The notes under the pieces were generated by a model. It did not search any database. It was not told the origin of the DNA and worked only from the letters and a program-made list of their open reading frames with translations. A DNA stretch of 64,000 nucleotides from Acidimicrobiales bacterium. Lineage in GTDB: Bacteria; Actinomycetota; Acidimicrobiia; Acidimicrobiales; Ilumatobacteraceae. A program made the translations under genes and the position numbers. The DNA lies in the NCBI GenBank assembly GCA_040002995.1, contig JBDUDK010000075.1, forward strand, positions 24,160-88,159, in the 5' to 3' direction. Positions 1,492 to 14,203 of the stretch are shown piece after piece (the first letter of the stretch is position 1; each line of letters starts with the position of its first letter).

Positions 1492-2544
1492 TCAGGCGCT
1501 GTCTACGAGGTCGCGGAGCGTCTCGATTGTGCGCACTGCGTCGCCCCCGACGGGGTTGACAGACAGCACGGTGACGCCGGCCTCCCTGAACGCGGCCACG
1601 CGCTCCGCGATGTAGCTCTTGGGACCGATGAGGTTCGTCTTTTCGAGCCAGTCGGCGGGCACTTTGGCCGCGGCCTCTTCCTTCTTGCCGTCGAGGTAGA
1701 GGTTCTGGATTTCTTCTGCCTCGGCCTCGTAGCCGTAGCGGCGGGCGAGGTCGTTATAGAAGTTTTTGCCTCGTGCGCCCATGCCGCCCACGTAGAGCGC
1801 GACACCCGGCCGGCTCTTGTCACGTATCCGGGTCGCCTCCTCCCCCACCAGGTCGTCGCCGATGGCGACGGTGCCGCCCGCGGCAATCTCGAGCGGCCTC
1901 AGGTCGCTCGACCGCTTGGCGAGGCCCGCCTTGAGCTGGTCGCCCCAGACGCGACTGGACCGCTCGGGGATGAACATGATCGGAAGCCAGCCGTCGGCGT
2001 ATTGGGCCGTTGTCTCGACGCTCTTGCCCATGAGCGATGCCCACCAGATCGGGATGTCGGCGCGCACTGGGTGGTTGATCAGCTTCAGCGGCTTGCCGAG
2101 CCCGGTGCCCTCCTCGGGCGGGAGCGGGATCTTGACCGCGTCACCGTCATAAACCAGGACCTCTCGCTTCCAGACCTTCCGGCAGACCTCGATGTACTCC
2201 TTGATGCGGGTCATCGGCTTGAGGTACGCCACGCCGTGGAAGCCCTCGACCACCTGAGGACCCGACGCCCCCAGGCCGCAGATCGCGCGCCCGTCGCTCA
2301 CGTAGTCGAGACCGGCGAACGTCATCGCGACAAGGGCGGCCGTGCGTGAGTAGACGTTCACGATGCCCGACCCGATCTCGATGCGGTCGGTCACGCCGGC
2401 CAGGTAACCCATCTGACTGATCGCGTCGAAGCTGTAGGCCTCCGCGACCCACACGATGTCGAGGCCGACCTTCTCGAGCTCGACCACTTGTTTGGCCGTC
2501 TCCTTAAAGTCTCCGACGTAGTTGATACCCATGCTCAGCCGCAT
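1492..2544 (-). CDS. LLM-class (luciferase-like) F420/flavin-dependent oxidoreductase
   Basis: 350-aa ORF. Sequence MRLSMGINYVG...LDIVWVAEAYSFDA...GLGASGPQVVEGFHG fits the pattern of actinobacterial LLM TIM-barrel oxidoreductases. Confidence 0.75.
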   Translation of the reverse strand: MRLSMGINYVGDFKETAKQVVELEKVGLDIVWVAEAYSFDAISQMGYLAGVTDRIEIGSGIVNVYSRTAALVAMTFAGLDYVSDGRAICGLGASGPQVVEGFHGVAYLKPMTRIKEYIEVCRKVWKREVLVYDGDAVKIPLPPEEGTGLGKPLKLINHPVRADIPIWWASLMGKSVETTAQYADGWLPIMFIPERSSRVWGDQLKAGLAKRSSDLRPLEIAAGGTVAIGDDLVGEEATRIRDKSRPGVALYVGGMGARGKNFYNDLARRYGYEAEAEEIQNLYLDGKKEEAAAKVPADWLEKTNLIGPKSYIAERVAAFREAGVTVLSVNPVGGDAVRTIETLRDLVDSA

Positions 2545-2571
2545 GGCCCCCCCTTTGCGATCGACAGACGG

Positions 2572-3723
2572 TCAGATACTTGCGTACACGGCCTCGAGGA
2601 TCGCCAGCTTGCGCGGGTCACCGTTCAAGACGCCACCCATGCGGTTCATCACCCAGGCCACGGCCAGACCATTCTCGGGGTCGGCCATGGCGAACGATCC
2701 GCCCCAGCCGTCGTGGCCGAACGAACGGGGATTCGGGCCGTACGCGCCGAGCTCGCCGCCGACGACGTAGCCCAGGCCCCACGACACGGGCAGCATCAGG
2801 ACGAGGTCGGGGTTCGTCACCTGGATTTCGCGCATGCGCTCGACGGCTTCGGCTGACACGAGACGGACGCCATCGATCTCGCCGCCCGCGGCGAGCGCCG
2901 CGTAGACGCGGGCGAGTCCTCGCGCCGTGGCCTGTCCGTTCGCCGCGGGGATCTCGGCCGCGCGCCATCCGGTGAGGTTGGCGTCCCTTGGCGACAGCAT
3001 CGGGTTCGTGAGCGCGGCCAGAGCGGCCGGCGTGGCGTTCGCGAACATCTGGGCCATGTCGGCCGCCATCTGCGCGCTCATGACGACCTCGGTGAGATCC
3101 GCGCAGCGATCGTGGTCGATGACCGGAAGCCCGATGTAGATGTCGGCCCCGAGTGGAGCCGCGACCTCCTTCGAGAAGAACGCGCCAAGCGAGACGCCAG
3201 TGATGCGGCGCACGATCTCACCCACGAGGTAACCAAAAGTGATGGCCTGGTAGCCCGACTGGGTGCCCGGCTCCCAGATCGGCGCCTGCGCAGCGAGCAG
3301 GCCACAGATCTTGTCCCAGTCCTCGTAGTCGGTGGCGACCGTGGGAGTCGTGAGGCCCGAGAGCCCCGTACGGTGCGAGAGCACCCAGCGCACGAGCACG
3401 TCCTGCTTGCCCGCGGCCGCGAACTCCGGCCAGTACCGCGCGACGGGCGCATCGAGGTCGAGTTCGCCTCGGTCGACCAAGATGTGCGCGCACAGGCTGG
3501 TCATGCCCTTGGTGGTCGACCACACGTTGACGAGGGTGTCGTGTTGCCAAGGCCGGCCCGACTCATCGGCGGCCCCGCCCCAAAGGTCGACCACCGGACG
3601 ACCGTTGTGCGTCACCGCTACCGCCGCCCCGACGTCGCTTCTCTCAGAGTAGTTGTCCACGAACGCGGCGCGGACTTTGGCGAAACGATCGTCACAGGTG
3701 CCGTCGATCTCGGTCATAGCCAC
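2572..3723 (-). CDS. Serine hydrolase, beta-lactamase/esterase (class C-like) family
   Basis: 383 aa with the S-x-x-K nucleophile motif in VWSTTKGMTS. Clear paralogue of the CDS at 13049..14203 (shared RPVVDLWGG, LDLDAPV.RYWP.F). Confidence 0.8.
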   Translation of the reverse strand: MAMTEIDGTCDDRFAKVRAAFVDNYSERSDVGAAVAVTHNGRPVVDLWGGAADESGRPWQHDTLVNVWSTTKGMTSLCAHILVDRGELDLDAPVARYWPEFAAAGKQDVLVRWVLSHRTGLSGLTTPTVATDYEDWDKICGLLAAQAPIWEPGTQSGYQAITFGYLVGEIVRRITGVSLGAFFSKEVAAPLGADIYIGLPVIDHDRCADLTEVVMSAQMAADMAQMFANATPAALAALTNPMLSPRDANLTGWRAAEIPAANGQATARGLARVYAALAAGGEIDGVRLVSAEAVERMREIQVTNPDLVLMLPVSWGLGYVVGGELGAYGPNPRSFGHDGWGGSFAMADPENGLAVAWVMNRMGGVLNGDPRKLAILEAVYASI

Positions 3724-3735
3724 GAGAGTACGCGC

Positions 3736-4602
3736 TCAGGTAGTTCCCGACTTCGTAGGTAGACCCGCCGGCAGTGAAGGAGGCAGATCACGCAGCATGC
3801 GGTCGACGCGATCGGTGGTCTGGCCGTGCTGAAGCTCGGGGTGGGTGAATATGTAGAAGCGGTCGTCCCGGATCGCACAGAAGACCTTGTCGGCCACCTC
3901 CGCCGGATCCATGCCGCCGGTGAGCAATCGCTTCACGTCCTGGATCATCCGCTCGAGGTCGGTCGTCGGCTCGGGCTCGGGTACCGCTCCACCGGGGCGG
4001 TGCTCGGCGCTCCGGTTGATGTTGGTGTTGATCGGACCCGGTATCAGCACCGACGCGCTCACCTTGGCCTCTTGGTCGTGCAGTTCGAGATAGAGCGCTT
4101 CAGTGAGGGCGAGCACTCCGTGCTTGGCCAGCCCGTAGGGCGCCGAGTACGGGCAGGGGAACAGCGCTGCCGTCGACGACGTGTTGACCACGTGGCCCTC
4201 CTCGCCCCCGGCCAGCATCCGAGGAATGAAGGTGCGGATCCCGTGTACGACCGACCAGAGGTCGACGCCGAGCACCCATTCCCAGTCGGCTTCCGACAGA
4301 GCCCAGCTCCGTCCCTCCATCGAGACGCCGGCGTTGTTGCAGAGGACGTTGACGATTCCGAAGCGGTCGTAGGCGGCGTCGGCGAGCCGCTCGATCTCGG
4401 AGAGCTGGCTCACGTCGGTGGGCATCGCGAGCACCTGAGCCCCCGTCATCGCGAGCTGCTGGGCGGCGGCCGTCAGCTGCTCGGCCTCGATGTCGGCAAG
4501 TACCACCTTCATGCCCTCGGCTGCGAAGCGAGCGGCCATGGCCAGTCCCATCCCGCTCGCAGCGCCGGTGACGACGGCAACGCGATCCTGAAAGACCTTC
4601 AT
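3736..4602 (-). CDS. Short-chain dehydrogenase/reductase (SDR)
   Basis: 288 aa. Rossmann motif VVTGAASGMGLA and catalytic Y-x3-K (YGLAKHG). Confidence 0.85.
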   Translation of the reverse strand: MKVFQDRVAVVTGAASGMGLAMAARFAAEGMKVVLADIEAEQLTAAAQQLAMTGAQVLAMPTDVSQLSEIERLADAAYDRFGIVNVLCNNAGVSMEGRSWALSEADWEWVLGVDLWSVVHGIRTFIPRMLAGGEEGHVVNTSSTAALFPCPYSAPYGLAKHGVLALTEALYLELHDQEAKVSASVLIPGPINTNINRSAEHRPGGAVPEPEPTTDLERMIQDVKRLLTGGMDPAEVADKVFCAIRDDRFYIFTHPELQHGQTTDRVDRMLRDLPPSLPAGLPTKSGTT

Positions 4603-4604
4603 GG

Positions 4605-5114
4605 CTACGCCCGTTGCTTCAGCTGTTGGGGTTGGCTGTTGCGCAATCCCGGCATGTACTCGATGAACTCGAGCAGGTTGCCGTCGGGGTCACGGCAGAG
4701 CGAGACGGCTTTGATACCGAGAGTGTGGTGCTGCTCGTCGTCGCGAAGAACGATGAACTCGATGCCCTTCGACTGGAGGTCGTGGTACGCGGCGACCACG
4801 TTCTCGGTGAGCAGCGCGATGAGCGTTGGCACCCGTTCCTCGACCGGGGTGGTGGGTTCGGGCAGTGTTGGGTCGAGCCACTGGATGAGGTCGAGCCGCG
4901 TGTGTAGGTCGCCGGCATCGATCGCCATGAGCACGCCTCGCCCCGAGGCCACCCGCATGCCGAAGTTCTCGGCCACCATGTCGGGCCAGATCGCGTTGCG
5001 CCGATCGTGGATCATCTGAAATCCGACCTTCGTGTAGAACTCGATAGAGCGCTCGAGGTTGCGCACGGCGAGCGTGAAGTGCGACAGGCAGCGAATACTC
5101 CATTGCTCGGGCAT
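4605..5114 (-). CDS. VOC (glyoxalase/bleomycin-resistance/dioxygenase) family protein
   Basis: 169 aa. LSHFTLAVRNLERSIEFY...DPDGNLLEF is the typical VOC-fold signature. Confidence 0.7.
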   Translation of the reverse strand: MPEQWSIRCLSHFTLAVRNLERSIEFYTKVGFQMIHDRRNAIWPDMVAENFGMRVASGRGVLMAIDAGDLHTRLDLIQWLDPTLPEPTTPVEERVPTLIALLTENVVAAYHDLQSKGIEFIVLRDDEQHHTLGIKAVSLCRDPDGNLLEFIEYMPGLRNSQPQQLKQRA

Positions 5115-5137
5115 GAGATCTCCTTTTTGTTGACCGC

Positions 5138-5866
5138 CTAGCCGGCGGTTGGTTGTTTCTCCGTCGTGTCCGTGAGATAGGCGGCGCGGATCTCGTGCAG
5201 ATGCGCGCGCATGTAGTCGGCGTCGCCCTGAATGACCACTTGACCGCGCCGTAAGACATACGCGCGGTTCGCGATGCGAAGGACGTTGTGGATGCCCTGC
5301 TCGACCACGATGACCCCGGTGCCGTCGGCCGCCGCTGATTCGAGCAAGCCCATCATGCGCTTCACCACGACGGGTGCGAGTCCGAGCGAGAGTTCGTCGA
5401 CGAGGAGAACGCGTGGCTTTGCGGCGAGGGCGCGCGCCAGCACCAAGATCTGCTGCTCGCCACCTGACAGCAGTCCGGCGCGAACGTTGAGACGGTTGGC
5501 GAGCTCGGGCGCGTAGGTGAGTGCCTCCTCCACCGGGCCTAATCCCAGCTTGAGGTTGGCCTCCGCCGTGATCCTGCGGAAAATCGACCGCTGCTCAGGG
5601 ACGAGCGCCAAGCCCCGCCGCGCCCGGCGGTGCAGGGGCGCCTTCGTCTTCTCCCCGAACAGTTCGATGTGTCCCTTCATCGGCGCAAGGACTCCGGCCA
5701 GTCCGAGCAGCGTCGTGGTCTTACCGACGCCGTTGGCGCCGAGGAGGCCGACGATTTCGCCCGACCGCACCTCGAGGTCGAGGTCGACGACCGCGGGCAC
5801 CTGGCCGTAGCCGACCGTGAGGCCGCGCGACTGGAGGACGACGTCAGCCGGAGCCATCGACCGCAT
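5138..5866 (-). CDS. Branched-chain-amino-acid-type ABC transporter ATP-binding protein (LivF-like)
   Basis: 242 aa. Walker A GANGVGKTT, signature LSGGEQQ, Walker B LLLVDE. The start overlaps the 3' end of the upstream fused gene. Confidence 0.85.
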   Translation of the reverse strand: MRSMAPADVVLQSRGLTVGYGQVPAVVDLDLEVRSGEIVGLLGANGVGKTTTLLGLAGVLAPMKGHIELFGEKTKAPLHRRARRGLALVPEQRSIFRRITAEANLKLGLGPVEEALTYAPELANRLNVRAGLLSGGEQQILVLARALAAKPRVLLVDELSLGLAPVVVKRMMGLLESAAADGTGVIVVEQGIHNVLRIANRAYVLRRGQVVIQGDADYMRAHLHEIRAAYLTDTTEKQPTAG

Positions 5867-8525
5867 CTTCCAACTCGTCGCCGAGATACGAGGCGACCAC
5901 CTCTGGGTGGTGCAGGACCACGGAAGGCGGACCGGTCACGATCGGCCGCCCGTAGTTGATGACCGTGATTTCATCGCTGACCGCGGCGACCAGACCGACG
6001 TCGTGCTCGACGAGGAGGATGCCGACGCCCCGTTCGTGCGCGATGCCCCGGAGGCGTTCACCGACGGCGGCCGTGTCGGTGTCGGAAAGTCCGGCGGCGG
6101 GTTCGTCGAGCAGGCAGATCACCGGGTTAGCCGCGAGCGCCCTCGCGATCCCGACCAGCTTGCGGTCTCCGTAAGAGATCTCGGTGGGGAGCCGGTCGAG
6201 GACCCCGTCGAGGCCGAGATCGGACACCATTGCTCCCACCAGACCGGGCAGGCGCGACTCCGGCCGCGGGACCAAGTCACGTAGCCACGCGTGCCACGGC
6301 ATCGGTTCACACGCGATGAGGATGTTCTCGCGCACGGTCATGTCGTCGAACAACTCGACGGACTGGAACGAGCGACCGACGCCCGCGCGACTCCTCCGGT
6401 GCGCGGCCATGCCGGTGAGGCGCTGGTCGCCCAACCAGACCTCGCCCGTGGCCGCGGGCAGGAATCCGCTCACCGCGTCGATGAGCGTGGTCTTGCCGGC
6501 GCCGTTCGGTCCGATGAGGCCGTGGATCGTTCCCGGTCGCACCGTGAGCGTCAGACCGTCGACCGCCTTCACCGCGCCAAACCTCACACTCAGGTTGGTC
6601 ACCACCAACTCCGACGGCGGTCGAGCCGGGCTCGTCCACTTCTCCTCGCGCGCCCGCAGCCTGGGTATCGGGACGGGGAGGCGGCGCAGGGCCGTGGCGA
6701 TCGGTCGGTAGGTGGCGGCGATGCCCTGCGGGTAGCCGATCAAGATGAGGATGACCACTGGTCCCGAGATGGCGATGAGGATCTCGGCGAGGTTGTCGAC
6801 TTTCGCGATGAGGAAACCGAACACGCCGCTCGGCACCATCATGCCGCCGACGAGCGCGCCGGCGACGTAGCCGACCCCGCCGATCACGCTGAACGCGACG
6901 ACGTTCAGCGATTGGCCGATGCTGTACTGCTGGTAGACGACGATGCGGAACCGAAAGGCCATCAGGATGCCGCCGACCGCGGCGATGGATCCGGCCAACC
7001 CGAATGCGTAGAGCTTCACGCCGGTGATGCTCACGCCAACGGCGGCCGCCGCGCGTTCGTTGCTGCGCACGGCCAGCAGGCGCCGACCGATACGACTGGC
7101 ACGCGCGCAGGCCACGGCCATACCCACGATGCCGAAGATCACCACCGCGAACGCCGCGTAGCGCTGGGGATACTTGCTGGGATCGAGGTTGATACCGGCG
7201 ACGGAAGGGGCGTGGACGCTGGTGCCCGCGAAGCCACCGACCGCCTTCGGGTTCGAGAACACCATCGACTGCACCACCAGCGCGAGGCCGAGGGTGGCCA
7301 CCGCGAGGGTGGGGCCGCGCGTGCGGAGCGCGGGCAGTCCGAAAACAAGGGCGCCAACAGTGCCCACCGCGATACCGACGATGGCGACGGCGACGAACGG
7401 CCATCCCCAGTCGTGACTGAGTCGAGCCGCGATGAAGCCGGCGATGCCGGCGATGGCGAACTGACCGAGGGAGATCTGGCCGGCGAGACCGGTCAGCACG
7501 ACGAGCGACAGTGCCACCGTGGCGAAGAGCACTGTGGTGGTGAGGTTGACGGCGACGTCGTTCGGCAGCCGGCCGGCGACGACCGCCGCCACCGCCACCA
7601 GAACCAGAACACCAACGCCGGGGCGGTTCCGGCCGACTCGCGGAAGTCGCGCCGCGCGCTCGTCGCGAGTGGGGATCACCCCTCCTCGGACGGCGGCGAC
7701 GAGGATGATCACGACGAATGGAAAGGCCGAGGCCGCACCGACGATGTGGACGTACTTGTTGAGAAGGCTCTGGCCGATTCCAATCACCAGCGATCCCGCC
7801 GCCACACCCAGAAACGACGAGAAGCCGCCGAGCATGGCTCCGGCCAGCGCGGGCACGACCAGCAGCGTGAGCGTCTGCGCGTCGAGGCCGGTGATCGGCA
7901 CGATGAGTACGCCCGCCAACCCGGCCAGCGCCGAGCCGATCACCCAGTTGGCCGTCGACACGGCTTCTGGAGAGTGACCGAGGGTCTGTACGCCGAGTTG
8001 GTTCTCGGCACTCGCGAGCGTGAGCGCGCCGAATGTCGAACGGCGCGTCAACAGCGTGAGCGCGACCGCGATGGCGATCCCGATCGCGAGGATCGTGAGC
8101 CGGTCGTGGCCGACACCGACCGTCCCCGTCATCTTGAACGTCCCCCCCGGCAAGAAGTTGCGCACGATGCGGAGGTTGGTTCCGAAGATCACGATCATGA
8201 CCTGTTGGAACAACGCCAGGATGCCGAGCGTGGCGATGATCTTGACGACGGGGGGGCGGTCGCGCAGCGGGCGCATGACCGCCTGGGCGATGATCGCGCC
8301 CACCGCCGCGCTCATGACGACGCTCGTCACGACCGCCGCGGTGAGCGGCCAGGTCTTGTCCTGCCAGAGCCACACGAAGACCTCGGCGGCCACGAGGGCC
8401 TGCGCGCCATAGGCGAAGTTCAGGACGCCGGAGCCGCGGTAGATGAGGACGAGGCCCTGCCCGGCGAGGGCGTAGATCCCTGCCGGGCCGAGGCCTAAAA
8501 GTACGAACTGGAGGAAGATCGCCAA
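5844..8525 (-). CDS. Fused LivH-like permease / LivM-like permease / LivG-like ATPase (single 893-aa polypeptide)
   Basis: One uninterrupted 893-aa ORF. The N-terminal ~290 aa are hydrophobic and LivH-like (MAIFLQFVLLGLG...). A second ~330-aa polytopic LivM-like block follows. The C-terminal ~250 aa form an ABC ATPase (GLIGPNGAGKTT, ISYGDRKLVGIARAL, LLDEPAAGL). Confidence 0.8.
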   Translation of the reverse strand: MAIFLQFVLLGLGPAGIYALAGQGLVLIYRGSGVLNFAYGAQALVAAEVFVWLWQDKTWPLTAAVVTSVVMSAAVGAIIAQAVMRPLRDRPPVVKIIATLGILALFQQVMIVIFGTNLRIVRNFLPGGTFKMTGTVGVGHDRLTILAIGIAIAVALTLLTRRSTFGALTLASAENQLGVQTLGHSPEAVSTANWVIGSALAGLAGVLIVPITGLDAQTLTLLVVPALAGAMLGGFSSFLGVAAGSLVIGIGQSLLNKYVHIVGAASAFPFVVIILVAAVRGGVIPTRDERAARLPRVGRNRPGVGVLVLVAVAAVVAGRLPNDVAVNLTTTVLFATVALSLVVLTGLAGQISLGQFAIAGIAGFIAARLSHDWGWPFVAVAIVGIAVGTVGALVFGLPALRTRGPTLAVATLGLALVVQSMVFSNPKAVGGFAGTSVHAPSVAGINLDPSKYPQRYAAFAVVIFGIVGMAVACARASRIGRRLLAVRSNERAAAAVGVSITGVKLYAFGLAGSIAAVGGILMAFRFRIVVYQQYSIGQSLNVVAFSVIGGVGYVAGALVGGMMVPSGVFGFLIAKVDNLAEILIAISGPVVILILIGYPQGIAATYRPIATALRRLPVPIPRLRAREEKWTSPARPPSELVVTNLSVRFGAVKAVDGLTLTVRPGTIHGLIGPNGAGKTTLIDAVSGFLPAATGEVWLGDQRLTGMAAHRRSRAGVGRSFQSVELFDDMTVRENILIACEPMPWHAWLRDLVPRPESRLPGLVGAMVSDLGLDGVLDRLPTEISYGDRKLVGIARALAANPVICLLDEPAAGLSDTDTAAVGERLRGIAHERGVGILLVEHDVGLVAAVSDEITVINYGRPIVTGPPSVVLHHPEVVASYLGDELEDAVDGSG

Positions 8526-8562
8526 GTGGCGCCGCTCCTACCAGTGCCGGTGTGTGGCTCCC

Positions 8563-9897
8563 TTACTTCTTCTCGAACGGGTAGTACCACTGGAACGGCA
8601 AGATCGACTTGACCACGCCGCCCTCGACCTTGGCATAGGCCACGCTCCCGTTCGTGAAGCGCGGAACCGTGCCCTTGAGGAGGGTGCCGGGAACCGTGTA
8701 GTCGATGTCGGGCGTTAGGCCACCGGTGCTGTACTTCGTCATCTTGGTCAGGCTGTCGAGAATCGACTTCCTGTCGATCGTGGCAAGTCCCTTGGCCGCG
8801 GCGTCGAGCATCTGCAGCCCGACCCAGGCCTGCTTCGAGAAGTCGTCGCTGTCCTTGCCGTTTCCGTACTTCTTCAGGGCGTCGGTGAACGCCTTGATAC
8901 CGGGCTGGTCGATGTCGTCAAAGGCGAACAGACCGCTCACGAAAAGGCCCTCGGCGGCGTCGCCCATACTCGAGAGCACCGCGGGAGTGAACGCGTCGAT
9001 GTTGGTGGCGAACGCCACCTTCGAGCCCTGCTTGCGCGCCTCGGCCACCACCTTCGCCGCAGTCTGCGGATCGGTGAGGAGCACTGCGCCGTCGGTTCCG
9101 CCGCTGAGCAAATCGGCGGTCTGGGGCGCGACGTCGGCGGTACCGATGTCGATCGGCACCTTCTTGTTGATCGTCAGGCCGCGGCTGGCGAGCGCCTCCA
9201 CAACCGTGTCCACGGCGGCAAGGGCCGCCGGCACGTTGACGTAGATCGCCGATATCTTCTTCGCGTTGCCGACGTCGGCCAGTTCTGTGGCCATGCCCGC
9301 GCTCGACACCAGATATCCGGCATTCACCGGGAAGGCGATCTTGCTCTGACCGTCGGACGCGCTGTACGGCTGCGGGGCCACGCTCGCGAGTCCGGCCTTC
9401 TCCAGAACGCCGTTGACGACGTCGGAGAAGTTCGACACGTTGGCAACCGTCGCGATGACCGAGTTGTCGTTCACGGCATCGGTGGCGCACTGCGCCTCGA
9501 TATTCGGGTCGAACTGCGTGGGGCAGAAGTCGAAGGTCACCGGGCGGTTGCTGCCTCCGAGTCCGCCGTGGTCGTTGATGTAGTCGGCCGCCATCTTCAT
9601 GCCCGACCGCAGTGTCGGATACGTGAGGCTGGCCGCGGTGCTCTCATCGACGATGGAAACGATCTTCACCGGGTCGCCGGTGGCCTTACCGCTCGGCGCC
9701 GCGGTGGTCGCCGCGCTCGGCGCCGCGGTGGTCGCCGCCGCACTAGGTGCCGCAGTAGTCGCCGCCGCACTCGGTGCCGCGGTGCTCTGCGGGCTCGAGG
9801 TGGTTTTTGAACTGCCGCAGCTCGCCAGCGCGGCGATCAGCGCCCCAATGACGAAGAGCCCTGTACCTCTGCTCCGGTTTACGTGCGCACGCCGCAT
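8563..9897 (-). CDS. Liv/amide-type ABC substrate-binding lipoprotein
   Basis: 444 aa. Signal peptide plus lipobox (LIAALASCGSS). A low-complexity linker follows with reiterated AAPSAAATT units, then a type-I periplasmic-binding-fold body. First gene of the minus-strand ABC operon. Confidence 0.8.
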   Translation of the reverse strand: MRRAHVNRSRGTGLFVIGALIAALASCGSSKTTSSPQSTAAPSAAATTAAPSAAATTAAPSAATTAAPSGKATGDPVKIVSIVDESTAASLTYPTLRSGMKMAADYINDHGGLGGSNRPVTFDFCPTQFDPNIEAQCATDAVNDNSVIATVANVSNFSDVVNGVLEKAGLASVAPQPYSASDGQSKIAFPVNAGYLVSSAGMATELADVGNAKKISAIYVNVPAALAAVDTVVEALASRGLTINKKVPIDIGTADVAPQTADLLSGGTDGAVLLTDPQTAAKVVAEARKQGSKVAFATNIDAFTPAVLSSMGDAAEGLFVSGLFAFDDIDQPGIKAFTDALKKYGNGKDSDDFSKQAWVGLQMLDAAAKGLATIDRKSILDSLTKMTKYSTGGLTPDIDYTVPGTLLKGTVPRFTNGSVAYAKVEGGVVKSILPFQWYYPFEKK

Positions 9898-9968
9898 CAG
9901 TGTCCCCCTAGGTGTGTGTATGTCATCCGACGGCGGGCGTCACGTCCCCAAGCGCTGGCCCGTTTCGT

Positions 9969-10020
9969 ACTCTATGAAGCGCTCACTTCGTTGTCAACAA
10001 TCACCTCGTTAGATATGTTG
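9969..10020 (-). promoter_or_regulatory. Promoter-operator module A (-35 TTGACA, 17-bp spacer, -10 TAGAGT, two 9-bp direct repeats)
   Basis: On the minus strand, TTGACA is the reverse complement of 9992..9997. A 17-nt spacer follows, then TAGAGT (reverse complement of 9969..9974). Repeats AACGAGGTG and AACGAAGTG (plus strand 10002..10010 and 9984..9992) flank and overlap the -35. 32 of 37 nt are identical to module B. The block starts 87 nt from the SBP start codon. Confidence 0.6.
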
Positions 10021-10025
10021 GCCGC

Positions 10026-10787
10026 TTACCTAATGAGATCGAGGATGCCGCTCGCCCCCTCGACCTGAGCGGCCCGGCGATCGGCCTTTTGGAGCTGGCG
10101 GCTCCAGAACGCCTCCGCGCCATCGGCGTCGCCGGCGTTGATCAGCTCGATGAGGCGCTGGCAGCCGCGAACCGCGGCCTCCATGAACGTCTGCCGGAAG
10201 GCCTTCTCGGTGCGCCACTCGCTGGCCATGACGGTGATGTGGAGCTCGACGATGTCGGACAACAGACGTCCGAGCAGGGCGATCGTTTTGTTTCCGGTCA
10301 GCTCGAGCAGGAGGTAGTTGAACCCGGTCAGCAGGTCGAGGAAAGCGAAGAAGTCATCGCCGGTGGTTTCCATCGTGGCGACGTGCGTGCGGAGGGCCTT
10401 GATGTCGCTCGCCGAATGGTGCCGCGCGAGAAGTTTCGCCGCGGCCGGAAGCAGAAGCTCGAACGCCTCGTCGACATCGACGATCGTTGCGCCCTGATGC
10501 TGCAGAACCAGCCCGACGTGGCGTGCCGCGACCTTGACGCTCGGCGTGCGCACTACCGGGCCCTTGCGCGCGCCACGGCGGATGGAGATGAGGTCCTCGG
10601 CCTCGAGGATCCGGAACGCCTCTCGCAATGTTGGTCGCGAGACGCGGAAGGTCTCGCACAGTTCGCTCTCGACGGGGAGGTTGTCGCCCTCCTTCAGTTC
10701 ACCTCGGATGATGCGGCGCCGGATTTCATCGGCGACCAACTCCGACGTCTTTGGAACGCGCGTCTCGGTGAATGCTGCCCTGTTCAA
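10026..10787 (-). CDS. GntR-family transcriptional regulator (FadR/FCD subfamily)
   Basis: Winged-HTH LVADEIRRRIIRGELKEGDNLPVESELCETFRVSRPTLREAFRILEAEDLI followed by a helical FCD-like domain. The 314-aa track ORF is trimmed to a TTG at 10787, which overlaps the upstream stop (TTGA). The longer N-terminus would run through the cyclase gene. Confidence 0.75.
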   Translation of the reverse strand: MNRAAFTETRVPKTSELVADEIRRRIIRGELKEGDNLPVESELCETFRVSRPTLREAFRILEAEDLISIRRGARKGPVVRTPSVKVAARHVGLVLQHQGATIVDVDEAFELLLPAAAKLLARHHSASDIKALRTHVATMETTGDDFFAFLDLLTGFNYLLLELTGNKTIALLGRLLSDIVELHITVMASEWRTEKAFRQTFMEAAVRGCQRLIELINAGDADGAEAFWSRQLQKADRRAAQVEGASGILDLIR

Positions 10788-11725
10788 AGGATCGCCACGG
10801 GATTCACCGGCGAACCCGTGCCTCCCTGGATCCGGAGGGGCAACACCGAGAACAGGAACTCCCAGCGTCGCTCCCGGTCGCACGCCTCGGCGAGCCGGGA
10901 CAACTGCAGGTTGTCGAGGAGATGCACGCCCATCGCCACAAGGCAGCACTGATGCACAGGGATCGGCCATCCCGACTCGAGGTTCGGAGGCAGTGGATCG
11001 GAGACACCGTCGCTACCGATGACGGCGATGTCGTGATTGTGGATCCACGGAATGCACGATGGATGCAGACCGGCCAGGCCCACCATCACCGGGTCCCAGG
11101 GCCCGACGGCGGTCCTGCGGGCATCGCGCCCCGTGCGGACCAACAAGATGTCGCCAGGTTTGATACCGACGGCCTGCGCGCCGGCGGCCTGGTCGAGCTC
11201 ATCGGCCGAGATCGTGTCCCCCGGCTCCAACCAGTCGACCCCGCGAAGTCTCGGGATGTCGAGCAACACACCACGCCCGACGATGCCGCCGAACGCCGCT
11301 TCGATCGAGTTGTAGAGAGCACCGATGCTCTTGACGTCGGTGGCCGGGCGCCCGTTGTACATCTCGCCACCGACGAAGACATGGCAGAGCGCGTCGATGT
11401 GAGAGACGGCCATGCCGTGGAAGGCCACTCCGACATAGTCGAGCGACGTCTCGAGCCCGGGGACTCCAGTGGCGTCAAGGCTGTCACCCGCGATCAACAT
11501 CATGTGCTGGGCTGGCGTCGGATTCTCGATCGACGGCACGACGGGCAACTCCAACGCGCAACTCACGACAGTGCCCGTCTTCACCAACGCCGCGGCCGCC
11601 AACACATTCTTCTCAGTGATGAGGTTGAGTGCGCCGCGCTGGTCGTCGTCTCCCCAGCGGCCCCAATTCTTGACGGACTCGAACATCGCCCGCATATCGT
11701 CTGGCCCGACTCGATCGGCCATCAC
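10784..11725 (-). CDS. Cyclase-family protein (kynurenine-formamidase-like fold)
   Basis: 313 aa. The N-terminus VKNWGRWGDDDQRGALNLIT and the His-rich metal-site region (HIDALCHVF) are typical of the putative-cyclase family. Confidence 0.7.
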   Translation of the reverse strand: MMADRVGPDDMRAMFESVKNWGRWGDDDQRGALNLITEKNVLAAAALVKTGTVVSCALELPVVPSIENPTPAQHMMLIAGDSLDATGVPGLETSLDYVGVAFHGMAVSHIDALCHVFVGGEMYNGRPATDVKSIGALYNSIEAAFGGIVGRGVLLDIPRLRGVDWLEPGDTISADELDQAAGAQAVGIKPGDILLVRTGRDARRTAVGPWDPVMVGLAGLHPSCIPWIHNHDIAVIGSDGVSDPLPPNLESGWPIPVHQCCLVAMGVHLLDNLQLSRLAEACDRERRWEFLFSVLPLRIQGGTGSPVNPVAIL

Positions 11726-11744
11726 TTTCTCCTTCCGAAACGCC

Positions 11745-12917
11745 CTACGCCAACGCGGGGATGAGGTACTCCCCCGTCAGACGGAGGCTGCGCATGACGT
11801 CCTCGTGAGAGAGGGCGCCGAACTGCTGAAGCGACATCAAGCGATCGACGCCGATGTCGGCATACCGGCGGGCCTTGCGTATGCACGTGTCGACATCGCC
11901 GACGATGACCGACTCGACTCCCTCCATCACCTCGTACGCCTCTTCAGGATCGACCTCCATGCCGAGGGCTTGGCGGTTCATGAGACGGAGCAAGGGGATC
12001 GGGTCGTCGGGATCCATGTCGACCATGATCTTGCTTGGATCATGCTCGGCGCTGATGGAGCGCGTGTCGATGCCCTGCCCGCGGATCATGTTGGTCCAGA
12101 TCGTGCGAGGGACGGCAAAGATGCGCGGGGCCGCGTTCACGTACCACATGGCCGCTTCCGCGGCCCGGCTGGCGATCGCCTGCTCCTTGGTCTCCGCGCA
12201 GTGAAGGAACGTGAACACCGCCTTCTGGTTGTTGTCGACCTGGCTGATGGGCTTGACCACCTGGCGCCCCTCGTCGTAGCGGTCGAGGAACGCCTTCAGA
12301 AGTGAGAGAGGAGAAAGCAGTGTGGTGGCGAGCGCGCCCACGCCGATACTGCCTGCCATGAAGAACGCGTCGGGGCTCGACACCGTCTGCCACATGGGCG
12401 GGTGCGGCTTCTGAAGGGGCTTGGGCACGACCGTTCGCTCAGGGAACGAAATGTGCTTGCCTTCAAACTTGAAGGTCTCCTGCGTCCACATCATCGGGAG
12501 GAGTTCGAACATCTCTCGGATCTGCTCGTAGGTGATGTCGCCGTCGACGCCGAAGGTCTCCCATTCGGTACCCCCCGATCGGGCCAGGCCCATCTCGAGC
12601 CGGCCATCGCTCAAGATGTCAAGAACGGCTGCCCGCTCGGCCACCCGGAAGGGGTTGTTGATGTTGAACGGGCTGAGCACACCGGAGTGGCCGACGTGAA
12701 TGTCTTTGGTGTTCAGGGCGATGGCCGTGAGGGTGAGTTCGGGCGCGGAGCTGTAGGAGAACTCCGGCGCGCCGTGGTGCTCCACCGTCCACCAGCACTT
12801 GTAGCCGAGTCCGTCACACAGCTTGGCCTGCTCGATTGTGTCGGTGAACACCTTCTTCTCGTGCCCCGGTGGCCATGGCTTGACCATCTGCTGCTCTGAG
12901 AAGATGTCGAAATCCAC
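11745..12917 (-). CDS. LLM-class flavin-dependent oxidoreductase
   Basis: 390 aa. MDFDIFSEQQM...CWWTVEHHGAPEFSYSSAPE...RLEMGLARSGG is the pattern of luciferase-like monooxygenases. Confidence 0.75.
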   Translation of the reverse strand: MDFDIFSEQQMVKPWPPGHEKKVFTDTIEQAKLCDGLGYKCWWTVEHHGAPEFSYSSAPELTLTAIALNTKDIHVGHSGVLSPFNINNPFRVAERAAVLDILSDGRLEMGLARSGGTEWETFGVDGDITYEQIREMFELLPMMWTQETFKFEGKHISFPERTVVPKPLQKPHPPMWQTVSSPDAFFMAGSIGVGALATTLLSPLSLLKAFLDRYDEGRQVVKPISQVDNNQKAVFTFLHCAETKEQAIASRAAEAAMWYVNAAPRIFAVPRTIWTNMIRGQGIDTRSISAEHDPSKIMVDMDPDDPIPLLRLMNRQALGMEVDPEEAYEVMEGVESVIVGDVDTCIRKARRYADIGVDRLMSLQQFGALSHEDVMRSLRLTGEYLIPALA

Positions 12918-12988
12918 CGTGGCTCCCTTCAGACATCCGCGACGACAGCGCGGCCCCCGGGCGCGAGCCCATCCTTGCTGCGGCGGCG

Positions 12989-13040
12989 ATCGTATGGAAG
13001 GTGCACCTCGTTGTCAAGGATCACCTCGTTAGGTATGTGG
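12989..13040 (-). promoter_or_regulatory. Promoter-operator module B (-35 TTGACA, 17-bp spacer, -10 TACGAT, two AACGAGGTG direct repeats)
   Basis: Same architecture as module A. The -35 is the reverse complement of 13012..13017 and the -10 is the reverse complement of 12989..12994. The repeats lie at plus-strand 13004..13012 and 13022..13030. The block again starts exactly 87 nt from the downstream minus-strand start (12917), and lies immediately upstream of the divergent hydrolase gene. Confidence 0.6.
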
Positions 13041-13048
13041 GAACGCAC

Positions 13049-14203
13049 GTGACGCCGCACGCACTGGTTGATGGATGGTGCGACCCGGCGTTCGCCGGGG
13101 TCGGCGAAGCGTTTCGCGAGAACTTCGCCGATGGGCTCGAGACAGGCGCCGCCCTTTCGGTGAGCGTGGCCGGTCGACCCGTCGTTGATCTTTGGGGCGG
13201 CTGGGCCGAGCCCGAGGATCGCGTCGCGTGGGATCGCGACACCGTTGTCTGCGTCTTCTCGTGCAGCAAGGGCCTGCTCGCGCTCGTGGCGTTGCGTCTC
13301 GTCGAAGAAGGTCGTCTCGATCTCGACGCGCCGGTCAGCCGTTACTGGCCCGACTTCGGATCGGGCGCGAAGCAATCGGTTCTCGTTCGCCACCTCCTCA
13401 CCCACGAGGCGGGACTGCCGGCGGTGACACGCCAGTTGCCGTTTGGTTCGCTGCGCGACTGGGACGTGATGACCACCGCGCTGGCCGAGACCGACCCTTG
13501 GTGGGAACCGGGAACGGCTCACGGCTACCACGGAGTGACTTTCGGGTACTTGCTCGGCGAAGTACTTCGTCGGATCACCGGATCGCTTCCGACGGAGCTC
13601 TTCCGATCCACACTGGCCGATCGACTCGGCGTCGACATCGACCTGCGGGCAACGCCACGACAGCAGGGCCGCATCGCTGAGCTTTTCTTGGCGCCGAGTC
13701 CCGATGGCACATTCTTCGAGCACTGGGGGCCCGACGACCTCGGGCCCAAGTCGTTTTTCAACCCACCCGACTGCAGCGACGTCTCGTACACGAACTCCGC
13801 GGCTTTTCGCGAGTCAGAAATTCCCGGAGCCAATGGGTTCGGTACGGCGCGAGCGCTCGATCGCGCGTATTCGGTTCTGGCGTGCGGCGGTCAGCGCGGC
13901 GGGGAACGCATCATCAGCAACGACCTCGTCGCGGAGGCGGGCCGGACGCATGTCTCAGGCATTGATCGGGTGATGAACCTTCCCACCGCGTTTGGCCTCG
14001 GCTTCGAACACACCATTCCGGAATGGAAGTTCGGGCCCTCCCCCAACGCCTACGGGCACAACGGCTCGGGTGGGTCGCTCGGGCTGGTCGATCCCGACGT
14101 TGGCCTCAGTTTGGGGTACGTGATGAACCGTTTGTACTGGGGCAAAACGCGCGACGACCCGCGGTGGGAACGCCTTTTCGACACCATCTATAACGCTCTT
14201 TAG
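13049..14203 (+). CDS. Serine hydrolase, beta-lactamase/esterase family (paralogue of 2572..3723)
   Basis: S-x-x-K motif in VFSCSKGLLA. The track ORF starts at GTG 13001, but those first 16 codons are the conserved operator sequence. The in-frame GTG at 13049 gives an N-terminus collinear with the paralogue. Confidence 0.8.
   Translation: MTPHALVDGWCDPAFAGVGEAFRENFADGLETGAALSVSVAGRPVVDLWGGWAEPEDRVAWDRDTVVCVFSCSKGLLALVALRLVEEGRLDLDAPVSRYWPDFGSGAKQSVLVRHLLTHEAGLPAVTRQLPFGSLRDWDVMTTALAETDPWWEPGTAHGYHGVTFGYLLGEVLRRITGSLPTELFRSTLADRLGVDIDLRATPRQQGRIAELFLAPSPDGTFFEHWGPDDLGPKSFFNPPDCSDVSYTNSAAFRESEIPGANGFGTARALDRAYSVLACGGQRGGERIISNDLVAEAGRTHVSGIDRVMNLPTAFGLGFEHTIPEWKFGPSPNAYGHNGSGGSLGLVDPDVGLSLGYVMNRLYWGKTRDDPRWERLFDTIYNAL

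What the first reader, a model, noticed from the sequence alone, without database searches (positions are those of the whole stretch)
9969..10020. Duplicated promoter-operator module placed exactly 87 nt upstream of two operons flanking the GntR gene
9984..10020 and 13004..13040 share 32 of 37 nt: CAC(T/C)TCGTTGTCAA..ATCACCTCGTTAG.TATGT.G.

Read on the minus strand, each contains a consensus -35 TTGACA, a 17-nt spacer and a TANNNT -10 (TAGAGT at 9969..9974; TACGAT at 12989..12994). Each also has two 9-bp direct repeats, AACGAGGTG, 18 bp apart. One of the repeats abuts and overlaps the -35.

Both blocks begin exactly 87 nt from the start codon of the downstream minus-strand gene. These are the SBP at 9897 and the LLM at 12917. 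The latter heads the LLM-cyclase-GntR operon.

Module B also occupies the first 16 codons of the track ORF for the divergent serine hydrolase, which argues for the later GTG start at 13049.

The simplest reading is one repressor controlling three units: its own operon, the divergent hydrolase, and the long ABC/VOC/SDR/hydrolase/LLM operon. The locally encoded FadR-type GntR is the obvious candidate. That would define a regulon for an unidentified substrate. The direct-repeat layout is unusual for GntR operators, which are normally palindromic.
Basis: partly seen in the sequence, partly recalled or inferred. Interest (0 to 1): 0.6.

Follow-up and report, generated by a model that had tools for sequence, protein, structure and literature searches.

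The report
Duplicated promoter-operator of a GntR regulon
Two near-identical promoter segments carrying repeated protein-binding boxes sit in front of two neighbouring gene clusters and are conserved in related uncultured bacteria, so they are most likely the switch through which the locally encoded GntR-type repressor controls an uncharacterised uptake-and-breakdown pathway; this is a solid but fairly ordinary regulatory prediction.

Summary
Two ~50-nt blocks (9969-10021 and 12989-13041, read on the minus strand) share 32/37 core bases. Each holds TTGACA, a 17-nt spacer, a TAnnnT -10, and two AACGArGTG boxes 18 bp apart.

These are the only two such sites in the 3.68-Mb genome.

The same module (cACATA.CtAAC.A.GT-N5-TTGACrAC.A.GT ... 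TAnnnT) precedes orthologous LLM-cyclase-GntR, binding-protein/ABC and neighbouring catabolic operons. It occurs in five independent metagenome lineages whose GntR is 54-66% identical, three times in one contig. A matrix built only from those foreign copies ranks the two window sites first and second genome-wide (46 and 44 bits; next 23).

Conservation is a sharp island: 71% identity inside, about 29% in the flanks.

Best reading (about 0.7): a sigma-70-type promoter with an embedded operator for the local FadR/FCD-type GntR. The GntR would act as an autoregulated repressor of its own operon, the 7-gene ABC/VOC/SDR/esterase/F420-LLM operon, and probably the divergent esterase.

The "exactly 87 nt" spacing is coincidence: orthologues vary from 53 to 184 nt and the leaders are unrelated. 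Direct-repeat operators are rare in this family but have precedent (NanR, FarR, NagQ). Binding, transcription starts and the ligand remain untested.

The parts
12989..12994 (-). Module B, -10 hexamer TACGAT
   Evidence: TAnnnT conserved at the same 17-nt spacing in orthologous modules
13012..13017 (-). Module B, -35 hexamer TTGACA
   Evidence: TTGAC invariant in 8/8 modules
13005..13012 (-). Module B, box 2 AACGAGGT (promoter-proximal; first A is the last base of the -35, the rest lies in the spacer, about -31 to -24)
13023..13030 (-). Module B, box 1 AACGAGGT (about -49 to -42)
13034..13038 (-). Module B, conserved upstream block ACATA (about -57 to -53); a possible inverted half-site or UP-like element
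9969..9974 (-). Module A, -10 hexamer TAGAGT
9992..9997 (-). Module A, -35 hexamer TTGACA
9985..9992 (-). Module A, box 2 AACGAAGT
10003..10010 (-). Module A, box 1 AACGAGGT
10014..10018 (-). Module A, conserved upstream block ACATA
10026..10787 (-). FadR/FCD-type GntR regulator, 253 aa. Its TTG start overlaps the cyclase stop codon (TTGA). It is the candidate repressor.
   Evidence: Pfam GntR 64.9 bits and FCD 48.8 bits; start and the 253-aa orthologue P0001
10784..11725 (-). Putative cyclase-family (PF04199) hydrolase, second gene of the operon driven by module B
11745..12917 (-). Luciferase-like monooxygenase, first gene after module B
13049..14203 (+). Divergent EstB/LipL-like serine hydrolase. 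The start is revised to GTG 13049, 8 nt beyond the module, so its promoter must overlap module B.
1492..9897 (-). Seven tightly spaced genes after module A: binding protein (8563-9897), fused LivH/M/G permease-ATPase (5844-8525), LivF ATPase (5138-5866), VOC (4605-5114), SDR (3736-4602), EstB/LipL-like hydrolase (2572-3723), F420-dependent LLM (1492-2544)
   Evidence: gaps or overlaps between genes are -23 to +37 nt

Best explanation
Each block is a housekeeping-sigma (sigma-70/sigma-A type) promoter, TTGACA-17 nt-TAnnnT, with a built-in operator.

The operator is two head-to-tail AACnAnGT boxes 18 bp apart. One lies at about -49 to -42. The other starts at the last base of the -35 and fills the upstream part of the spacer. 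A conserved ACATA block sits at about -57.

The FadR/FCD-type GntR encoded between the two blocks most likely binds these boxes, probably one dimer per box. Binding would occlude the -35 and spacer and so repress transcription until an unknown small-molecule ligand releases the protein.

Module B would control the LLM-cyclase-GntR operon, giving autoregulation. Because the hydrolase start codon lies 8 nt from the module, it would also control the divergent esterase gene. Module A lies 6 nt after the GntR stop codon, with no terminator in between. It would control the binding-protein/ABC/VOC/SDR/esterase/F420-LLM operon.

Shown here: the sequence anatomy, its uniqueness in the genome, its conservation, and its co-occurrence with the regulator. 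Inferred: who binds, the sign of regulation, the stoichiometry, the transcription starts and the ligand.
For: - Anatomy and non-randomness.
- Only two sites in the genome. The other relaxed period-18 hits are GAC-GAC-GTx codon artefacts.
- The same module stands upstream of the LLM-cyclase-GntR operon in L029, L031/L032 and L035. It also precedes the binding-protein/ABC operon in L035 and L034/L036, and a third catabolic operon in L035.
- In all 8 independent modules the TTGAC, the 17-nt spacer and AAC.A.GT / rAC.A.G are kept. The central base of every box is A in 16/16, so the orientation is truly tandem.
- Cross-validation: a matrix built only from the 5 foreign modules scores window B at 46.2 bits and A at 43.8 bits. 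The next genomic hit scores 23.1 and the reversed-sequence control reaches 20.1 at most.
- Sharp island of conservation: 25.7/36 mean pairwise identity in the core against 9.8 and 11.2 in the adjoining 36-mers. Window B against L031 is 30/36, although their GntR proteins are only 63% identical.
- The GntR is the only regulator gene consistently linked to the module.
- No module is found next to GntR homologues at or below 49% identity or in 150 other genomes of the family.
- A near-identical strain keeps both modules; its only SNP within them is at a variable column.
- The 18-bp direct shift is the strongest self-similarity, 0.52 against 0.25 +/- 0.08.
- A box overlapping the -35 and spacer of a near-consensus promoter is the classic position for a repressor (established knowledge).
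Against: - No binding, expression or transcription-start data exist.
- The conserved boxes do not fit the FadR-subfamily operator consensus NyGTM-N0-1-KACNy (PMC4494728).
- Co-occurrence cannot separate 'module with GntR' from 'module with the catabolic genes', so an unlinked regulator is not excluded.
- One orthologue locus (L045-47, GntR 57% identical) keeps only ACATA plus box 1, as a 14/16 palindrome, and lacks box 2 and the TTGACA. The architecture is therefore not universal in the clade.
- L029 encodes two paralogous GntRs, so the assignment there is ambiguous.
- A and B are no more alike (31/36) than B and L031 (30/36), so nothing ties the pair specifically to one protein beyond the shared consensus.
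Confidence: 0.7

Rival explanations
1. The boxes are an operator, but for a different, unlinked transcription factor. Alternatively the local GntR binds elsewhere, for example a non-conserved GGT-N(1-2)-ACC palindrome that follows box 2 in some modules.
For: The boxes do not match the FadR-subfamily GT..AC consensus. Module B has AGGTGCACCT and L029 has GAGGTAACCTC immediately after or overlapping box 2, which look like canonical GntR cores. Co-occurrence is equally with the catabolic genes.
Against: The GGT..ACC palindromes are absent from module A and L031 and shift in register between loci, so they are not conserved. No other regulator gene is shared by the loci. The module disappears together with the GntR orthologue.
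Confidence: 0.12
2. The GntR binds the boxes but acts as an activator, or as a dual regulator, from the -49/-42 box.
For: Box 1 lies where class I/II activators bind. FadR itself is a dual regulator (established knowledge).
Against: The promoters are already near consensus (10/12, optimal 17-nt spacer) and should not need activation. Box 2 sits inside the -35/spacer, where a bound protein blocks RNA polymerase.
Confidence: 0.1
3. No dedicated regulator is involved. The conserved sequence is promoter-intrinsic, for example an UP-like AT-rich element, or a back-to-back bidirectional promoter that reads TTGTCA-17-TATGTn on the opposite strand.
For: The scan finds TTGTCA-17-TATGTT on the plus strand of module A. 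ACATA.CTAAC is the only AT-rich patch in a 67% GC genome and lies at -57 to -45. In B, L029 and L034 a divergent gene starts 5-9 nt beyond the module.
Against: ACATA is equally conserved where no divergent gene exists (A, L031, L35c). Box 2 lies in the spacer, where sigma-70 promoters have no sequence requirement. The 6/6 match of conserved positions between box 1 and box 2 at an 18-bp shift is not explained by promoter elements.
Confidence: 0.06
4. The two blocks are alike by chance or through a neutral recent duplication, without function.
For: Only two copies; identical distance to the start codons.
Against: There are 0 matches in shuffles. The module is conserved across lineages whose proteins are 54-66% identical while the flanks are at random level. 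The leaders are unrelated, so there was no segmental duplication.
Confidence: 0.02

Closest known systems
E. coli NanR and its (GGTATA)3 operator (FadR subfamily of GntR regulators; PMC8012715)
   Same: A FadR/FCD-type regulator whose operator is made of tandem direct repeats overlapping a promoter, with one dimer per repeat and release by a small-molecule effector. NanR is the best-scoring named NCBIfam model (80 bits) and the second-best PDB hit.
   Different: The repeat sequence differs (AACnAnGT against GGTATA). The period is 18 bp against about 8-9 bp. There are two boxes, not three. This protein has about 13 residues before helix 1, not the 32-residue extension that mediates NanR cooperativity. 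It has Ser where NanR has the base-reading Arg59. Its score is far below the NanR family cutoff of 260.
Canonical FadR-subfamily operators (FadR, PdhR, LldR, DgoR: palindromes NyGTM-N0-1-KACNy; PMC4494728)
   Same: The same protein architecture (wHTH plus FCD) and the same logic of a locally encoded, autoregulated repressor of a catabolic/transport locus. The recognition-helix motif SRPTLREA is close to PdhR's (the PdhR sequence is from my own knowledge).
   Different: The conserved part of the module has AC-N3-GT cores in tandem, not a single GT..AC palindrome. The helix-2 Arg is replaced by Ser/Ala throughout the clade.
FarR, NagQ and MoyR (HutC subfamily) direct-repeat operators (PMC4494728; bioRxiv 10.1101/2025.08.21.671446)
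   Same: GntR-family repressors that recognise imperfect direct repeats. MoyR also controls a monooxygenase locus and forms higher oligomers on its operator.
   Different: They belong to a different subfamily with a different effector domain (UTRA, not FCD). Their repeats are adjacent (10-bp period) and AT-rich (TGTATTA-like).

Membership tests
GntR family, FadR subfamily (the regulator) | N-terminal winged-HTH GntR domain (PF00392) | tested here: met
   64.9 bits against a cutoff of 27
GntR family, FadR subfamily (the regulator) | C-terminal all-helical FCD effector domain (PF07729) | tested here: met
   48.8 bits against a cutoff of 24.3; full-length alignment to PDB 7c7e and PdhR 9jpj
GntR family, FadR subfamily (the operator) | Palindromic operator NyGTM-N0-1-KACNy | tested here: not met
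   The conserved columns read AAC.A.GT twice in tandem. GT..AC palindromes after box 2 occur only in some modules and in shifting register. The consensus is taken from PMC4494728.
GntR family, FadR subfamily (the operator) | Specific binding of the regulator to the site, relieved by a ligand | not testable with these tools
   Needs EMSA or footprinting; only co-occurrence is shown
NanR-type repeat operator system | Operator made of tandem direct repeats | tested here: met
   The 18-bp direct shift is the strongest self-similarity; the centre of every box is A in 16/16
NanR-type repeat operator system | GGTATA repeat units less than half a helical turn apart | tested here: not met
   The units are AACnAnGT with an 18-bp period; NanR details from PMC8012715
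NanR-type repeat operator system | 32-residue N-terminal extension mediating cooperativity | tested here: not met
   The start at TTG 10787 leaves about 13 residues before helix 1. Orthologues are 251-256 aa.
NanR-type repeat operator system | Protein scores above the NanR family cutoff | tested here: not met
   NF003011 scores 80.4 bits against a cutoff of 260
Sigma-70/sigma-A type promoter | -35 TTGACA-like and -10 TAnnnT hexamers 16-18 nt apart | tested here: met
   10/12 matches with a 17-nt spacer at both sites; conserved in orthologues
Sigma-70/sigma-A type promoter | Transcription start about 7 nt downstream of the -10 | not testable with these tools

The most novel reading that the evidence does not exclude
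A clade of FadR/FCD-type GntR regulators has lost the base-reading arginine of helix 2. It recognises head-to-tail AACnAnGT boxes at an 18-bp period, possibly the conserved halves of two adjacent 16-bp pseudo-palindromes, without a NanR-like N-terminal extension. That would be a DNA-recognition and assembly mode not yet described for the subfamily. It would also define the regulon of an uncharacterised LLM/cyclase/esterase/F420 catabolic pathway in uncultured high-GC bacteria.
Probability: 0.3. Interest if true: 0.55.

Novelty: new member of a known kind. Interest (0 to 1): 0.36.

Why it matters
If confirmed, the module gives a ready-made, cross-validated binding motif and a three-unit regulon for an orphan GntR regulator in an uncultured lineage.

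It ties together about 11 genes of unknown substrate into one inducible pathway: a binding protein with its ABC importer, two luciferase-like oxidoreductases (one F420-dependent), a cyclase-family hydrolase, two EstB/LipL-like esterases, a VOC protein and an SDR. That makes ligand and substrate hunting tractable, because the regulator can serve as a biosensor.

It would also add a second, differently built example beside NanR of a FadR-subfamily protein using tandem repeats instead of the family's palindrome.

It does not challenge any established concept. Local autoregulated GntR repressors are commonplace.

Tried and rejected
1. My first collection-wide patterns had the wrong gap: 7 or 6-7 N instead of 5 between box 1 and TTGAC. 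Those scans are void. The only metagenome-contig scan was wasted; its four hits (L037-L040) are low-GC chance matches. The error showed up because the window's own genome scored 0. The corrected pattern was verified on the window and on known loci.

2. The two genome-contig hits with the corrected pattern (L041, L042) lie inside long ORFs of unrelated organisms. They lack ACATA and a -10, so they are chance.

3. DNA for the 83%-identical orthologue P0002 could not be fetched. Its gene order is the same.

4. A leader or segmental duplication as the cause of the equal 87-nt distance is rejected.

5. Additional regulon members in the genome: none found.

6. A riboswitch or other known RNA in 9700-13300: none found at E<=1.

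7. A single palindromic reading: dyads at module positions 26.0, 9.5 and 27.5 score alike (0.48-0.54), so none is singled out. The ACATA/box 1 dyad is strong only in L045 (7/8 pairs) and L35c (6/8).

8. Recognition-helix covariation with the motif: the helix is invariant across the clade, so this test is uninformative.

9. GntR homologues at 46-49% identity (L048-L050) and family homologues (L006-L028) have no module.

11. Earlier notes of this scan hold nothing on this motif.

Full report
**Observation**

The two blocks are as described. 9984-10020 and 13004-13040 agree at 32 of 37 positions. The repeat finder extends the pair to 49 nt at 80% identity (9973-10021 / 12993-13041).

Read on the minus strand, each block has these parts:
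- TTGACA at 9997-9992 and at 13017-13012;
- a 17-nt spacer;
- TAGAGT (9974-9969) or TACGAT (12994-12989);
- two 9-mers, AACGAGGTG / AACGArGTG, 18 bp apart. The proximal one shares its first A with the last base of the -35.

The two-box pattern occurs twice in the window and never in 100 dinucleotide-preserving shuffles. The generic promoter scan returns exactly these two sites as the only minus-strand promoter-like sites in 9700-13300. Each scores 10/12, with 3 sites found against 0.4 expected.

**Gene context**

All the following genes lie on the minus strand.
- Module B precedes a luciferase-like monooxygenase (11745-12917), a cyclase-family protein (10784-11725) and a GntR/FCD regulator.
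- The regulator's real start is the TTG at 10787, which overlaps the cyclase stop (TTGA). This gives 253 aa, like its orthologues. The 314-aa ORF from 10970 is an over-extension.
- Module A begins 6 nt after the GntR stop, with no terminator-like site between them.
- Module A precedes seven tightly spaced genes: a Peripla_BP_6 binding protein, a fused LivH/LivM/LivG protein, LivF, a VOC protein, an SDR, an EstB/LipL-like serine hydrolase and an F420-dependent LLM (TIGR03559, above cutoff).

On the plus strand, a second EstB/LipL-like hydrolase diverges from module B. Alignment with its paralogue begins at residue 23 of the long ORF against residue 6 of the paralogue.

**Uniqueness**

- In the window's own 3.68-Mb assembly the strict two-box pattern and the module pattern hit only these two places.
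- A looser AC.A.GT pair at an 18-nt period gave 20 hits against 5 in the control. The other 18 are GAC-GAC-GTx-type codon strings inside coding frames.
- None of 150 other genomes of the same family has the module. Those genomes also lack a close orthologue of the regulator; the best is 47% identical.
- Among one genome each of about 185,000 species, the corrected pattern found two places. Both lie inside long ORFs of unrelated, lower-GC organisms and have neither the ACATA block nor a -10, so they are chance hits.

I made an error earlier. The patterns had a wrong gap, so those scans are void.

**Conservation**

The large protein collection holds closer orthologues of the regulator at 99, 83, 66, 64, 59-60, 57 and 54% identity. 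Their contigs show the following.
- L029, L031/L032 and L035 carry the same LLM-cyclase-GntR cassette.
- L034/L036 carry the regulator divergent from a binding-protein/ABC operon.
- In every one of these loci the module is present in register.
- L035 has it three times: before the binding-protein/ABC operon, before a divergent amidohydrolase/CoA-transferase/thiolase operon, and before LLM-cyclase-GntR-ECH-ligase-SDR.

The consensus of eight independent copies is cACATA.CtAAC.A.GT.a.c.TTGACaAC.A.GT...(17-nt spacer)...TA.g.T.

Three numbers make the case:
- A matrix built only from the five foreign copies ranks window B (46.2 bits) and A (43.8 bits) first and second in the entire genome. The next hit scores 23.1 and the reversed control reaches 20.1 at most.
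- Mean pairwise identity is 25.7/36 inside the core, against 9.8/36 and 11.2/36 in the adjoining 36-mers.
- Window B and the L031 module are 30/36 identical, although their regulators are only 63% identical as proteins.

A near-identical strain (L051) keeps both modules. Its one SNP within them falls on a variable column. Homologues at 46-49% identity and the family-level homologues have no module.

One locus (L045-47, 57% identity) keeps only ACATA plus box 1. There they form a 14/16 palindrome, ACATAGTTAACTAAGT, that overlaps the regulator's start codon.

**Internal structure**

The strongest self-similarity of the module is the direct shift of 18 bp: 0.52 identity against 0.25 +/- 0.08 over all shifts. 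All six conserved positions of box 1 recur in box 2, and the central base is A in 16 of 16 boxes. The repeats are therefore truly head-to-tail.

Dyads centred at module positions 26.0 (TTG-A-CAA), 9.5 (ACATA against box 1) and 27.5 score 0.48-0.54 against 0.25 +/- 0.11. None of them stands out. The boxes may be the better-kept halves of two adjacent 16-bp pseudo-palindromes, but sequence alone cannot decide this.

**The 87 nt**

The equality is arithmetically true but not meaningful. The leaders downstream of the -10 are unrelated (22/71 identical, the same as shuffles). The -35-to-start distance is 53-184 nt in the orthologous modules. No Rfam family matches the region.

**Mechanism**

A near-consensus promoter with one box inside the -35/spacer and one at about -45 is the standard geometry for steric repression (established knowledge). 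The GntR/FCD protein is the only regulator gene consistently linked to the module.

I therefore favour, at about 0.7, an autoregulated repressor that controls three units:
- its own operon;
- the long transport/catabolic operon;
- the divergent esterase, whose start lies 8 nt from the module, so that its promoter must overlap it.

Because no terminator separates the GntR gene from module A, read-through from promoter B into the second operon is likely. This is an inference.

**Comparison with known systems**

The FadR-subfamily consensus is a palindrome, NyGTM-N0-1-KACNy. Documented exceptions with direct repeats are NanR (FadR subfamily), and FarR and NagQ (HutC) (PMC4494728). MoyR is a further case (bioRxiv 10.1101/2025.08.21.671446).

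NanR binds one dimer per GGTATA repeat, and its cooperativity comes from a 32-residue N-terminal extension. Its probable base-reading residues are Arg59, Arg69, Arg73 and Asn89 (PMC8012715).

The present regulator's best named hit is the NanR model, but far below cutoff (80 against 260 bits). It differs in these ways:
- it lacks the N-terminal extension;
- its repeats differ in sequence and in period (18 bp);
- like its whole clade, it has Ser/Ala where NanR has Arg59, while the two helix-3 arginines are kept.

It works like NanR in outline, but it is not a NanR family member. Its operator fails the canonical FadR-type test.

**Verdict**

This is a well-supported new member of a known kind: a local GntR repressor with its operator, in the uncommon direct-repeat layout. 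Interest is moderate to low. Binding, transcription starts, the sign of regulation and the ligand all remain to be shown.

Noticed in passing
window 10026-10970 (-): The 314-aa ORF for the GntR is an over-extension. The real start is TTG at 10787, overlapping the cyclase stop codon as TTGA (translational coupling). This gives 253 aa, like the orthologues at 251-256 aa.
   Followed up: yes
window 9991-10019 (+): Module A also reads as a promoter-like site on the opposite strand (TTGTCA-17-TATGTT, 9/12), pointing antisense into the 3' end of the GntR gene. The equivalent in module B (TTGTCA-17-TATGTG) points at the divergent esterase, whose GTG lies 9 nt beyond it. This may indicate a bidirectional promoter or a near-leaderless esterase mRNA.
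   Followed up: partly
L029 7715-7735: Upstream of the second GntR paralogue (P0004, the closest homologue of the window's regulator in that contig) there is a perfect inverted repeat, ACGAG-GCG-CTCGT. It contains the same AACGAGG string as the window's boxes but in palindromic arrangement.
   Followed up: no
L045 3184-3229 (and L046, L047): In the locus with a 57%-identical GntR, only 46 nt separate the divergent start codons. That stretch holds ACATAGTTAACTAAGT (a 14/16 palindrome of the ACATA block plus box 1) overlapping the GntR ATG, and TGACTTA twice at a 17-nt period. There is no TTGACA and no box 2.
   Followed up: partly
window 9673-9787: The binding protein carries a tandemly repeated Ala/Thr/Pro/Ser-rich linker (TTAAPSAAA repeats, DNA period about 24-27 nt) just after its lipoprotein signal (LASCGSS).
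   Followed up: no
window 1492-2544 versus 11745-12917: The two luciferase-like genes of the putative regulon are of different kinds. The distal one is a clear F420-dependent LLM (TIGR03559, 449 bits, above cutoff). The promoter-proximal one reaches no subfamily cutoff.
   Followed up: partly
L035 1925-2415: Two copies of the module face away from each other about 190 nt apart in one 490-nt intergenic region. Each drives one of two divergent operons, and both are more degenerate than the window's copies.
   Followed up: partly
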